DNA of 44,554 nt, taken from positions 1-44,554 of the forward strand of contig JAJAYQ010000051.1 in assembly GCA_026786145.1 (NCBI GenBank), written 5' to 3'. The translations under genes and the position numbers were made by a program. Of the stretch, positions 42,285-44,554 are shown piece after piece (position 1 is the first letter of the stretch; each line of letters begins with the position of its first letter). This DNA is from Spirochaetaceae bacterium. Its GTDB lineage: Bacteria > Actinomycetota > Actinomycetes > JACCUZ01. The notes under the pieces were generated by a model that saw nothing but the letters and a program-made list of their open reading frames with translations, ran no database searches and was not told the origin of the DNA.

Positions 42285-44554
42285 GTGACTGACACCACTG
42301 ACGCCCCACCGTTCGACCCGGGTCCGGGCGGACGGATCGAGCCGGTCGACCTGCAGGTCGAGATGCAGCGGTCCTACCTCGACTATGCAATGTCGGTCAT
42401 CGTGCAGCGGGCCCTGCCCGACGTCCGTGACGGCCTCAAGCCGGTGCACCGCCGGGTGCTCTACGCGATGTTCGACGGCGGCTACCGACCGGACCGCGGT
42501 TTCTCCAAGTGCTCGCGCGTCGTCGGTGACGTGATGGGTCAGTACCACCCGCACAGCGACACGGCGATCTACGACACCTTGGTGCGCCTCGGCCAGCCCT
42601 GGTCGCTGCGCTATCCGCTGGTGCAGAGCCAGGGAAACTTCGGCTCACCGGGTGACGACCGTCAAGCAGCTATGCGCTATTGCTTGACCGGCGATGTAAG
42701 GATCAGGACGGTCGACGGCACGATCCGTATCGACGAGATCGTGCCGGCGGCGGAGCCGAACTCTGACACGGAGATCGACCTCAAGGTCGTCGGTCGCGAT
42801 GGCGAACCCGTGCGGGCGTCGATGTTCTTCCACTCCGGTGAGCACCCAACGCTCCGCCTGAGCACCAAGGGCGGGTTCTCGATCTCCGGCACCCACAACC
42901 ACCCGGTGTTGTGCCTGGTGGACGTCGCCGGTGTGCCGACGTTGCTGTGGAAGTTGCTCGAGGAGATCTCCGCCGGGGACCGCGTCGCCATGCAACGCAC
43001 CACGCCGCAGGGTCTCGGGAACTGGGACGATGACCAGCAGGCAGCGGCTTTGCTGGCTGGGGCCTTTGTCAGCGAGGGATGGCTCTCCGACACCCGTGGT
43101 GGTTTCAACAACACCGACTCCGAGTACTTCGGGTGGGTCAGGGACGCCTACGACCGGGTCGTCGGCGGACGGCGCTACGTCTCCTCGCGAATTATCAGGT
43201 CGGGCTCCCTGCTGCACGAGATGGACATACACGATCTGTCGGCGGTCCGTCGTAGCGTCTTGGCGTCGATGATCGGGCACCGCAGCGCCGACAAGCGCGT
43301 CCCCGAGTTCGTGTGGCGCGGCAGTCCCGCTGTCAAGACGACGTTTCTGCAGTCCCTGTTCACCGGCGACGGCTCATCGTCGTTGCTGGCCCGCGGCACG
43401 CTGCAGGTCACCTACTCCACCCGGAGCCAGCAGCTCGCCGACGACGTGCAGCAGCTCGTGCTCGAGCAGGGCGTTGTCTCATCTCAGTGCCGCTACGACA
43501 ACGGGGAGATCAAGCTCGTCATCGGCGGCCGCCGCAACGTCCGGCAGTTCGCCTGGAACGTGGGCTTCCTGGGTGACAAGCGCGACAAGCTCAACAAGCA
43601 CCTTTCATCCGTACCGCTGCATTCCAGAGCCCTGAGCGGCGACCACGTGCCGGGCCTCGGCGCGTTCCTGCGTGCGCATGGAGCGCGGTCGGCTGTCTCC
43701 CAGCGGTGGCTGGACGTGCACAACGTCGACCGCATCGAGCGCTGGGAGCGTGACCGCGAGCAGATCCTCACCCACATCACGCCGGCGGCGGCGGAAGTCG
43801 CCGAGCCGTTGGTCGATGGTCGCTTCTACTTCGCCGAGGTCGCCAGCATCGCCGATGCGGGGGTGCAGCCGGTCTACAGCATTCGCGTCGACACTGACGA
43901 CCATGCCTTCGTCTCCAACGGTTTCGTCAGCCACAACACCGAGTGCCGGCTCGCGCCGCTCGCGATGGAGATGGTGCGCGACATCGACCAGGAGACGGTC
44001 GACTTCTCGCCCAACTACGACGGCCGCCAGCAGGAGCCGACGGTGCTCCCCGCCCGGTTCCCCAACCTGCTCGTCAACGGGTCCGGTGGCATCGCCGTCG
44101 GCATGGCCACCAACATCCCGCCGCACAACCTGCGCGAGGTCGCGTCGGGCGTCCAGTGGCACCTCGACCACCCGGAGGCCACGCAGGAGGAGCTGCTCGC
44201 GGCCCTGCTCGAGCGGATCAAGGGACCGGACTTCCCCACCAAGGGCCTGATCGTCGGCACCAACGGCATCCGCGATGCCTACACGACCGGTCGCGGCTCG
44301 GTGACGATGCGCGCGGTCGTCGAGGTCGAGGAGGACAACCGCGGTCGGACCATCCTGGTCATCAGCGAGCTGCCGTACCAGGTGAACCCCGACGCCCTGG
44401 CCCGCAAGATCGCCGAGCTGGCCGATTCCGGCAAGGTGACCGGCATCGCCGACCTGCGCGACGACTCATCGGCCCGCACCGGCATGCGCCTGGTGGTCGT
44501 GCTCAAGCGCGACGCCGTGGCCAGCGTGGTGCGCAACAACCTCTACAAGCACAC
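42285..44554 (+). CDS. gyrA: DNA gyrase subunit A precursor, interrupted by an intein; 3' end beyond window (not in ORF track)
   Basis: Manual translation from GTG 42285 (GAGGAG SD) gives [45 protein letters not shown]...GQYHPHSD...[15 protein letters not shown], then the intein, then [12 protein letters not shown]...[19 protein letters not shown]...LPYQVN. The frame stays open to the window end. Confidence 0.93.
42681..43937 (+). mobile_element. GyrA intein (419 aa) with LAGLIDADG homing-endonuclease domain
   Basis: Cys1 ([13 protein letters not shown]), block B (GTHNHP), LAGLIDADG motifs at 43047-43082 ([12 protein letters not shown]) and 43344-43379 ([12 protein letters not shown]), and block F/G ([22 protein letters not shown]) followed by Thr+1. 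The insert is in frame with no stop. Confidence 0.9.

What the first reader, a model, noticed from the sequence alone, without database searches (positions are those of the whole stretch)
42681..43937. 419-codon LAGLIDADG intein splits gyrA directly after the catalytic tyrosine (gene invisible in the ORF track)
Seen: translation from GTG 42285 gives a canonical GyrA N-terminus ending ...[15 protein letters not shown]. At 42681 it switches to [13 protein letters not shown].... After 419 codons it returns to GyrA (...GFVSHN | [23 protein letters not shown]...[14 protein letters not shown]). The insert has Cys1, block B GTHNHP, a terminal HN followed by Thr+1, and two LAGLIDADG dodecapeptides ([24 protein letters not shown]). 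There is no stop in 1257 nt, so both the splicing and endonuclease parts look intact. Codon choice in the insert is visibly less GC3-biased than in the flanking gyrA (tat tgc ttg, gta agg atc agg, cga att atc agg, gac ata cac). Established: this is the insertion point used by the Mycobacterium xenopi/leprae-type GyrA inteins. Several blocks here ([13 protein letters not shown]; [24 protein letters not shown]) match my recollection of the Mxe GyrA intein. Inference: this is a horizontally acquired, possibly still homing-competent selfish element in an essential drug-target gene. The supplied ORF track shows only antisense shadows here, so automated callers may split gyrA or flag it as a pseudogene.
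Basis: partly seen in the sequence, partly recalled or inferred. Interest (0 to 1): 0.7.

Follow-up and report, generated by a model that had tools for sequence, protein, structure and literature searches.

The report
Homing-endonuclease intein inside gyrase gene gyrA
The gyrase A gene of this uncultured actinomycete is interrupted, right after its catalytic tyrosine, by an intact self-splicing protein element (intein) that carries its own DNA-cutting enzyme; this is a new member of a well-known, widespread family, so the finding is correct but ordinary.

Summary
One open frame runs from GTG 42285 to the window end. It encodes a GyrA N-extein (132 aa, ending AAMRY), a 419-aa insert (42681-43937, Cys1 ... 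His-Asn) and GyrA again from Thr+1. The insert is a class-1 intein of the known GyrA-a family. It matches NCBIfam "intein-containing DNA gyrase subunit A" at 1242 bits and the Mxe GyrA intein in PDB at E=4e-55. Pfam LAGLIDADG_3 is above cut-off. An AlphaFold model (pLDDT 95) superposes on intein-endonucleases. All splicing and endonuclease catalytic residues are present. The endonuclease region is under purifying selection (dN/dS 0.08). The closest GyrA relatives (95-98% extein identity) lack the intein. One carries a mini-intein and one a diverged full-length copy, so the element is polymorphic and probably mobile. Two reader claims need correcting. The gene was "invisible" only because it runs off the contig end. 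The GC3 contrast holds against the C-extein and gyrB, but not against the N-extein, which is equally AT3-enriched. That enrichment may be a co-conversion trace. The nearest full-length relatives are about 65% identical. Splicing and cleavage remain untested.

The parts
42270..42275 (+). Shine-Dalgarno-like GAGGAG, 9 nt upstream of the GTG start of gyrA
   Evidence: Read directly from the sequence. Start at GTG 42285 is supported by the conserved N-terminus MTDTT...[15 protein letters not shown] shared with M. tuberculosis GyrA (3ifz) and with P0002/P0121.
42285..42680 (+). gyrA N-extein, 132 codons, ending AAMRY. Tyr132 (TAT 42678-42680) is the catalytic tyrosine.
   Evidence: Pfam DNA_topoisoIV 7e-106 and NCBIfam GyrA models. 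Aligns with Mtb GyrA residues 1-129. GC3 is 0.84, against 0.97-0.98 in intein-less or mini-intein orthologues L032 and L034.
42681..43937 (+). Complete 419-aa class-1 GyrA-a intein (Cys1 ... His418-Asn419)
   Evidence: NF038098 GyrA_w_intein 577 bits for the insert alone. TIGR01445 35.8 bits and TIGR01443 23.9 bits are both above cut-off. Mxe GyrA intein 1am2 E=4e-55. AF2 pLDDT 95.4. Foldseek hits 7qss, 1dq3 and 1am2.
42681..43001 (+). N-terminal Hint splicing lobe (res 1-107). It contains Cys1 (TGC 42681-42683) and block B Thr71-x-x-His74 (42891-42902).
   Evidence: Aligns with Mxe GyrA intein residues 3-109. C1, N73 and H74 are invariant and T71 is at least 90% conserved in 46 GyrA inteins.
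43002..43772 (+). Nested LAGLIDADG homing-endonuclease region (res 108-364). It is absent from the Mxe mini-intein. It comprises the endonuclease core (about res 117-310) plus a helical linker (326-377).
   Evidence: Pfam LAGLIDADG_3 50 bits, above the gathering cut-off of 22.5. PI-PkoII 2cw7 E=4e-5. Foldseek matches I-DmoI, I-AniI, PI-PfuI and PI-SceI. dN/dS 0.08 against L033 over res 82-315.
43047..43082 (+). LAGLIDADG motif 1, [12 protein letters not shown] (res 123-134). The catalytic acid is Glu132 (GAG 43074-43076).
   Evidence: G127 and E132 are invariant and G133 is at least 90% conserved in alignment A1. The motif lies at the end of helix 117-131 in the model.
43344..43379 (+). LAGLIDADG motif 2, [12 protein letters not shown] (res 222-233). 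The catalytic acid is Asp230.
   Evidence: L223, G229 and G231 are invariant and D230 is at least 90% conserved. The motif lies at the end of helix 216-230.
43773..43937 (+). C-terminal Hint splicing lobe (res 365-419). It contains block F (Asp407-His408) and block G His418-Asn419 (CAC AAC 43932-43937).
   Evidence: Aligns with Mxe residues 145-199. H408 is invariant; D407, H418 and N419 are at least 90% conserved. TIGR01443 is above cut-off.
43938..44554 (+). gyrA C-extein, truncated by the contig end. Thr+1 (ACC 43938-43940) is the splice nucleophile.
   Evidence: Translation [12 protein letters not shown]...NNLYKH(T). Aligns with Mtb GyrA residues 130-334. GC3 0.966.
42633..42680 (+). Last 16 N-extein codons, 8 of which end in A/T (GGA, TCA, GGT, CGT, CAA, GCA, GCT, TAT). 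Candidate co-conversion trace.
   Evidence: Binomial p=6.5e-7 against the window's gyrB/C-extein background. Seven of these are synonymous GC-to-AT differences from intein-less L032. GCA GCT is shared with the other full-length-intein allele, L033.

Best explanation
Window 42285-44554 (+) is the 5' part of the housekeeping gyrA gene of an uncultured high-GC actinomycete. It lies in the canonical dnaA-dnaN-recF-gyrB-gyrA origin region. The gene carries a complete 419-aa class-1 intein of the GyrA-a family, inserted between catalytic Tyr132 and Thr+1.

Splicing mechanism (inferred from the family). After translation the Hint domain excises itself. Cys1 performs an N-S acyl shift, assisted by block-B Thr71/His74. 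Thr+1 attacks the thioester to give a branched intermediate. Asn419 cyclises, assisted by His418 and block F, and releases the intein. An O-N shift then rebuilds the native AAMRY-TECR active-site peptide of gyrase.

Homing mechanism (inferred). The nested two-motif LAGLIDADG endonuclease (Glu132, Asp230) probably cuts intein-less gyrA alleles at the ...ATG CGC TAC|ACC GAG TGC... site. Double-strand-break repair then copies the intein, and some upstream flank, into them.

Shown here: the anatomy, homology, fold, conservation of catalytic residues, purifying selection, and presence/absence polymorphism among close relatives. Inferred only: actual splicing and actual DNA cleavage.
For: - The frame is open and the boundaries are exact.
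- NCBIfam NF038098 'intein-containing DNA gyrase subunit A' scores 1242 bits over model positions 1-742. TIGR01445 and TIGR01443 are above cut-off.
- Pfam LAGLIDADG_3 is above cut-off.
- The Mxe GyrA intein 1am2 matches at E=4e-55, split around the endonuclease insert.
- The 46-sequence alignment shows C1, H74, E132 and H408 invariant, and T71, D230, K278, D407, H418, N419 and T+1 conserved in at least 90% of sequences. All are present in the window.
- The AF2 model has pLDDT 95.4 and pTM 0.93. It matches TliVMA intein 7qss (E=6e-21, TM 0.68), PI-PfuI 1dq3, PI-SceI, and Mxe GyrA at TMt 0.90-0.93.
- The insertion site corresponds to Mtb GyrA Tyr129.
- dN/dS is 0.08 in the endonuclease region against L033.
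- The nearest extein relatives lack the intein: P0121/L032 at 95%, L035 at 98% and L036 at 96%. P0124/L034 has a 172-aa mini-intein and L033 has a full-length intein.
- Intein and extein similarity rankings are decoupled.
- The family is large. There are 142 clusters at E<=1e-30 among representatives clustered at 50% identity. Many are precursors of about 1200-1300 aa with the match starting near residue 115-150.
- Fifty GyrA inteins were already catalogued in 2016 (PMC4760082).
Against: - No experimental evidence exists here for splicing or cleavage.
- Pfam Intein_splicing scores 26-29 bits, below its gathering cut-off of 35.8. NF038098 is below its full-length cut-off of 1850 because the protein is truncated.
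- Purifying selection on the endonuclease domain is also compatible with a non-homing role or with structural constraint on splicing.
- Presence/absence among relatives can arise from loss as well as gain.
- The gene is truncated, so an inactivating lesion downstream of 44554 cannot be excluded.
Confidence: 0.93

Rival explanations
1. It is a splicing-competent intein whose endonuclease no longer homes. The endonuclease is either inactive, or it is retained for structural reasons or some other role. The element would then persist only by vertical descent in this lineage.
For: Many full-length inteins have inactive endonucleases (general knowledge). Mini-inteins at the same site (Mxe GyrA; P0124/L034) show that endonuclease loss happens in this family. 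No cleavage data exist for this protein.
Against: Both LAGLIDADG acidic residues and the conserved Lys278 are present. dN/dS is 0.08 across res 82-315. Intact target sites exist in close relatives that lack the intein. That situation is expected when homing is ongoing.
Confidence: 0.3
2. The intein was not acquired horizontally in the recent past. It is ancestral to this actinomycete clade and has been lost precisely in L032, L035 and L036. The window and L033 copies would then be orthologues.
For: Window and L033 carry the intein at the same site with similar flanks (90-91% nt identity). They share the junction codons GCA GCT. Intein and extein identities correlate weakly across 30 genomes (Spearman rho 0.45).
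Against: Intein dS between window and L033 is 1.17, against about 0.5 for the adjacent N-extein, and nt identity is 79% against 90-91%. The inteins therefore look older than the host-gene divergence. This comparison is confounded by stronger codon bias in the exteins. The closest full-length intein relatives are in Micromonosporaceae (65%), whose exteins are only about 76% identical. GyrA alleles with 87-89% N-extein identity carry inteins that are only 57-60% identical.
Confidence: 0.3
3. It is an assembly or binning artefact: a chimeric contig that joins gyrA fragments to an unrelated intein-bearing read set.
For: The contig comes from a MAG labelled Spirochaetaceae although its content is actinobacterial. 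The binning is therefore unreliable.
Against: Mis-binning does not create in-frame junctions. Both junctions are exactly in frame at the canonical site. Dozens of isolate genomes (Micromonospora and others) have the same architecture. Flank composition changes gradually rather than abruptly.
Confidence: 0.02

Closest known systems
Mycobacterium xenopi GyrA intein (Mxe GyrA; PDB 1am2, 4oz6)
   Same: Both share the host gene and the insertion site (after the catalytic Tyr, Thr+1), Cys1, block B T-x-N-H-P and the terminal SHN. The N-lobe is 56% identical and the C-lobe 69% identical. The Hint fold superposes at TMt 0.90-0.93.
   Different: Mxe is a 198-aa mini-intein without an endonuclease. The window element carries about 257 extra residues (108-364) that form a two-motif LAGLIDADG endonuclease.
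Full-length GyrA-a inteins of Micromonosporaceae genomes (L001-L018, L025, L028-L031), other Actinomycetota, and M. leprae/kansasii/gordonae-type GyrA inteins (the mycobacterial examples are from my own knowledge of InBase, not tested here)
   Same: They share the site, the length (415-421 aa), the domain order and the conserved residues. All are covered by NCBIfam NF038098.
   Different: Identity to the window intein is only 50-65%. The one closer relative is an indel-ridden metagenomic copy, L033/P0058, at about 85% aa over res 82-315. The host is a different, uncultured actinomycete lineage.
Structurally characterised intein-homing endonucleases: TliVMA/PhoVMA (7qss, 7qst), PI-PfuI (1dq3), PI-PkoII (2cw7), PI-SceI (1vde, 1lws)
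   Same: All have the bipartite architecture of a Hint domain interrupted by a pseudo-dimeric LAGLIDADG endonuclease. Whole-model TM is 0.5-0.68.
   Different: Sequence identity is 11-17%. Host genes and sites differ. This element has no obvious PI-PfuI 'stirrup' domain. PI-SceI and PI-PfuI have demonstrated cleavage activity, whereas none has been shown here.

Membership tests
Class-1 intein (Hint-domain protein-splicing element) | In-frame insertion in a conserved site of a host protein, with host sequence resuming exactly | tested here: met
   The spliced extein aligns without a gap to Mtb GyrA residues 1-334 and to intein-less P0121 over 100% of its length.
Class-1 intein (Hint-domain protein-splicing element) | N-terminal Cys/Ser nucleophile, block B T-x-x-H, C-terminal His-Asn, and Cys/Ser/Thr at +1 | tested here: met
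   Cys1, Thr71/His74, His418-Asn419 and Thr+1 are all present. TIGR01445 (35.8 vs cut-off 24.5) and TIGR01443 (23.9 vs cut-off 15.6) pass. Pfam Intein_splicing scores 28.8, below its cut-off of 35.8.
Class-1 intein (Hint-domain protein-splicing element) | Hint fold | tested here: met
   The AF2 model (pLDDT 95.4) superposes on Mxe GyrA intein 1am2/4oz6 at TMt 0.90-0.93.
Class-1 intein (Hint-domain protein-splicing element) | Autocatalytic protein splicing | not testable with these tools
   Requires expression with a Western blot or mass spectrometry for the AAMRY-TECR junction peptide.
GyrA-a intein allele (Mxe/Mle GyrA type; NCBIfam NF038098) | Insertion immediately after the GyrA catalytic tyrosine (AAMRY|TE) | tested here: met
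   Tyr132 aligns with Mtb GyrA residue 129. The junction is the same in 30 genome loci. The 'GyrA-a' site name comes from PMC5050341.
GyrA-a intein allele (Mxe/Mle GyrA type; NCBIfam NF038098) | Score above the curated NF038098 cut-off (1850 bits) | tested here: inconclusive
   The score is 1242 bits over model positions 1-742 of 1232. The protein is cut by the contig end, so the full-length cut-off cannot be reached.
GyrA-a intein allele (Mxe/Mle GyrA type; NCBIfam NF038098) | Sequence homology of the intein itself to known GyrA inteins | tested here: met
   1am2 matches at E=4e-55. There are 324 GyrA-embedded homologues at E<=1e-5, the top ones at 49-65% identity.
Monomeric two-motif LAGLIDADG homing endonuclease | Two LAGLIDADG helices, each ending in a conserved acidic residue | tested here: met
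   [10 protein letters not shown]132GW and FLQSLFTGD230GSS are present. E132 is invariant and D230 is at least 90% conserved. LAGLIDADG_3 scores 50 bits against a cut-off of 22.5.
Monomeric two-motif LAGLIDADG homing endonuclease | Pseudo-symmetric alpha-beta-beta-alpha-beta-beta-alpha fold | tested here: met
   The model's secondary structure over res 117-310 fits this pattern. Foldseek hits I-DmoI, I-AniI, I-Tsp061I, PI-PfuI and PI-SceI.
Monomeric two-motif LAGLIDADG homing endonuclease | Site-specific cleavage of the intein-less allele, and homing | not testable with these tools
   Support is indirect only: dN/dS 0.08 and presence/absence polymorphism among close relatives.

The most novel reading that the evidence does not exclude
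This uncultured actinomycete lineage may capture a homing cycle in progress at one site. Empty alleles (L032, L035, L036), a mini-intein allele (L034) and two diverged full-length alleles (window, L033) coexist among close relatives. The two full-length alleles carry a strongly asymmetric excess of A/T-ending codons on the 5' side only: window N-extein 16% against C-extein 3%, and L033 11% against 2%. Alleles without a full-length intein show no such asymmetry. In Micromonosporaceae a similar excess is confined to about 16 codons upstream of the site. If this marks unidirectional co-conversion, or AT-biased repair, during homing, it would be a sequence scar usable to date and detect intein invasions. 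If instead it reflects selection for slow codons ahead of the intein, it would indicate co-translational control of intein folding.
Probability: 0.3. Interest if true: 0.45.

Novelty: new member of a known kind. Interest (0 to 1): 0.25.

Why it matters
GyrA is essential and is the fluoroquinolone target. An intein at its catalytic tyrosine means gyrase activity depends on protein splicing. Such elements are also useful markers of gene flow and a source of protein-engineering tools; Mxe GyrA is a workhorse of this kind. This case adds a divergent member, about 65% identical to its nearest complete relatives, to a family already covered by a dedicated NCBI model. It does not change the current understanding of inteins. 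The modest added value lies in two things. One is the set of empty, mini-intein and full-length alleles in one uncultured lineage. The other is the one-sided codon-composition scar next to the insertion site.

Tried and rejected
- **Rfam and tRNA scans.** Both found nothing in the whole window, so no RNA element is involved.
- **PHROGs.** Only weak matches appeared, to intein-bearing terminase or unknown families at E about 1e-5 to 1e-6. There is no sign of phage origin.
- **Literature.** I looked for an accessible primary paper on the Mxe GyrA site (PMC179553 is not held) and for 'GyrA intein' together with 'active site tyrosine' (no hits). The identity of the catalytic tyrosine therefore rests on the alignment to Mtb GyrA plus textbook knowledge.
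- **GC3 as evidence of foreign origin.**
- **Shared donor flank with Micromonospora.** I rejected this. The flank keeps the host-lineage amino acids [10 protein letters not shown], whereas Micromonospora has GNDPAAAMRY.
- **Mini-intein of L034 as a deletion derivative of this intein.** I rejected this. The splicing lobes are only 44-54% identical, which is less than the match to Mxe.
- **Antisense ORFs overlapping the region** (42645-43280, 43605-44171). I treated these as high-GC shadow ORFs, because the + frame carries the GC3 signal and all the homology.
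Full report
**1. Observation**

Translating from GTG 42285 gives 756 codons with no stop up to the window end. The product reads as a GyrA N-terminus up to ...[15 protein letters not shown] (codon 132, nt 42680). A 419-codon insert follows, from [13 protein letters not shown] to NGFVSHN (42681-43937). GyrA then resumes with [23 protein letters not shown]...[14 protein letters not shown].

The gene is missing from the ORF list only because that list omits ORFs that run off the source end. The window is a whole 44,554-bp contig. In the public record the gene is called as one partial CDS of 731 aa, starting at ATG 42363 and named 'hypothetical protein' (P0001). 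The upstream GTG start is better supported. The segment MTDTT...[15 protein letters not shown] is conserved in M. tuberculosis GyrA and in close relatives. A GAGGAG motif sits 9 nt upstream of the GTG.

**2. Identity of the insert**

- NCBIfam has a dedicated model, NF038098 'intein-containing DNA gyrase subunit A'. The precursor scores 1242 bits over model positions 1-742 of 1232, and the insert alone scores 577 bits. The full-length cut-off of 1850 cannot be reached because the contig ends inside the gene.
- TIGR01445 (intein N-terminal region) and TIGR01443 (intein C-terminal region) both pass their cut-offs.
- Pfam gives DNA_topoisoIV at 7e-106 and LAGLIDADG_3 at 50 bits (cut-off 22.5). 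Intein_splicing scores 26-29 bits, below its cut-off of 35.8.
- Against PDB sequences the best hit is the Mxe GyrA intein 1am2 (E=4e-55). It matches in two stretches, residues 2-107 and 365-419, which are 56% and 69% identical. The 257 residues between them are missing from that mini-intein and match PI-PkoII weakly.
- In a 46-sequence alignment of GyrA inteins, Cys1, Asn73-His74 (block B T71-x-x-H74), Glu132 and His408 are invariant. Asp230, Lys278, Asp407, His418-Asn419 and Thr+1 are at least 90% conserved. The window sequence has all of them.
- An AlphaFold2 model built on that alignment has pLDDT 95.4 and pTM 0.93. Foldseek places the whole model on the intein-endonucleases TliVMA (7qss, E=6e-21, TM 0.68), PI-PfuI and PI-SceI. 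It places the Hint lobes on Mxe GyrA (TMt 0.90-0.93) and the middle domain on I-DmoI, I-AniI and similar enzymes.
- The spliced extein aligns without a gap to M. tuberculosis GyrA. Window Tyr132 falls on Mtb residue 129, which is the catalytic tyrosine by established knowledge.

The insert is therefore a full-length class-1 intein at the GyrA-a site. The site name is used in PMC5050341.

**3. Context and host**

The contig is a textbook actinobacterial origin region. It carries parB, parA, jag, yidC, rnpA, dnaA, a DnaA-box cluster, dnaN, a gnd-like gene, recF, DUF721, gyrB and gyrA. Upstream lie Ino1, GT87, PBP1, DUF6049, trxB and a CwlM-like amidase. The contig is 71% GC. The nearest GyrA exteins all belong to Actinomycetes. 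The public label 'Spirochaetaceae bacterium' is therefore almost certainly a binning or labelling error.

**4. Distribution and mobility**

The closest GyrA relatives have no intein:

| Allele | Extein identity to window | State |
|---|---|---|
| L035 | 98% aa (89-93% nt) | no intein |
| L036 | 96% | no intein |
| P0121/L032 (same synteny) | 95% | no intein |
| P0124/L034 | 92% | 172-aa mini-intein at the same site |
| L033 | flanks 90-91% nt | full-length intein, 79% nt and about 85% aa identical |

The mini-intein of L034 is only 44-54% identical in the splicing lobes, so it belongs to a separate lineage.

Beyond these, the best full-length relatives are in Micromonosporaceae. Their inteins are 60-65% identical to the window's and their exteins about 76%. 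GyrA alleles with 87-89% N-extein identity carry inteins that are only 57-60% identical. Gaiellales-type hosts have 57-59% intein identity against 58-62% extein identity. Intein and host similarity are thus only loosely coupled (Spearman rho 0.45).

Between the window and L033, the endonuclease region has dN 0.095 and dS 1.17, giving dN/dS 0.08. The adjacent N-extein has dS of about 0.5. The endonuclease is therefore under purifying selection. The two inteins also look older than the host-gene split, although stronger codon bias in the exteins confounds the dS comparison.

Together these results support a mobile element that may still be homing. They do not rule out ancestral presence followed by repeated precise loss.

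**5. Composition**

| Region | GC3 |
|---|---|
| Intein | 0.871 |
| C-extein | 0.966 |
| gyrB | 0.940 |
| N-extein | 0.841 |

Orthologous N-exteins in alleles without a full-length intein have GC3 of 0.97-0.98 (L032, L034), or show no N/C asymmetry at all (L035, L036).

Against L032, all 17 synonymous GC/AT third-position differences in the N-extein go towards A/T in the window. Eight of the last 16 codons before the intein end in A/T (p=6.5e-7). The other full-length-intein allele, L033, shows the same N-versus-C asymmetry: 15/132 against 4/205 (p=4e-4). The window has 21/132 against 7/205 (p=7.5e-5). The A/T positions are mostly different in the two alleles, apart from GCA GCT at the junction.

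Among high-GC3 hosts, the 16 codons upstream of the site average 3.9 A/T-ending codons in intein+ alleles (n=29, mostly Micromonospora, so not independent). Intein- alleles average 1.0 (n=39). Downstream there is little difference.

My best guess is an asymmetric co-conversion tract from lower-GC3 donors. AT-biased repair, or selection for slow codons ahead of the intein, cannot be excluded. This is an inference.

**6. Comparison with known systems and novelty**

GyrA inteins have been known since the 1990s (Mxe GyrA; refs cited in PMC7765530). A 2016 survey counted 50 of them in Actinobacteria, Aquificae, Chloroflexi and Proteobacteria (PMC4760082). In a 1.84-billion-protein representative library, this intein finds 142 clusters at E<=1e-30. 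Many are precursors of about 1200-1300 aa with the match starting near residue 115-150.

The window element meets every testable membership criterion for a class-1 intein, for the GyrA-a allele and for a two-motif LAGLIDADG endonuclease. Activity itself could not be tested. It is a new and fairly divergent member of a known kind.

**7. Verdict**

General interest is low (0.25). The one feature worth following up is the one-sided codon-composition scar, together with the empty, mini-intein and full-length allele series in this lineage.

Noticed in passing
whole window (1-44554): The window is a complete NCBI MAG contig whose proteins are labelled 'Spirochaetaceae bacterium' (locus tag LH461_03030 for gyrA). 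Its content is 71% GC. It has the canonical actinobacterial origin-region gene order: Ino1, GT87, PBP1, DUF6049, trxB, parBA, jag, yidC, rnpA, dnaA, dnaN, gnd-like, recF, DUF721, gyrB, gyrA. All the nearest GyrA hits are Actinomycetes. The contig is likely mis-binned, or the MAG is mislabelled.
   Followed up: partly
window 42555-42557 (codon 91 of gyrA, AGC): The quinolone-resistance-determining region reads HPHSD instead of the near-universal HPHGD. Ser91 aligns with M. tuberculosis GyrA Gly88, which corresponds to E. coli Gly81 by my own knowledge of the numbering. Substitutions at that position are associated with fluoroquinolone resistance. All close relatives (L032-L036) have GGC (Gly).
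   Followed up: partly
window 35788-35841, plus 33991 and 34175: Three DnaA-box-like 9-mers (TTGTCCACA with one mismatch) lie in the dnaA-dnaN spacer. One perfect box and one near-perfect box lie upstream of dnaA. This is the probable oriC. The total count of 7 is only marginally above shuffles (6 of 100 shuffles reach 7), but the clustering is suggestive.
   Followed up: partly
window 40077-40250 (start of the gyrB ORF): The gyrB ORF from ATG 40077 has a 57-residue N-terminal extension relative to all GyrB models. GC3 is only 0.70 in its first 50 codons, against 0.94-1.0 in most of the rest. The true start codon is probably further downstream.
   Followed up: no
L034 1069-1584 (JGI 3300003313, P0124): A close relative (92% extein identity) carries a 172-aa mini-intein at the same GyrA-a site. 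It has GC3 of 0.77 and is only 44-54% identical to the window intein's splicing lobes. It represents an independent intein lineage that has lost its endonuclease.
   Followed up: partly
L026 3001-4261 (MAG Actinomycetota, CAVUDJ010000012.1): The GyrA-a intein here is 1261 nt long, which is not a multiple of 3, and shows 6 stops in the entry frame. It is either a decaying intein or a long-read indel error.
   Followed up: no
L001-L018, L025, L028-L030, about 30-48 nt upstream of position 3001: Micromonosporaceae intein-bearing gyrA alleles have a cluster of rare A/T-ending or AGG codons (GGA AAT GAT CCG GCT ... CGT/AGG TAT) just 5' of the intein, in genes that are otherwise above 95% GC3. The 3' flank is normal.
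   Followed up: partly
window intein residue 78 (TGC 42912-42914): A second cysteine, Cys78 in VLCLVD, is conserved in at least 90% of 46 GyrA inteins and is also present in Mxe GyrA. I did not examine whether it could pair with Cys1 for redox-conditional splicing.
   Followed up: no
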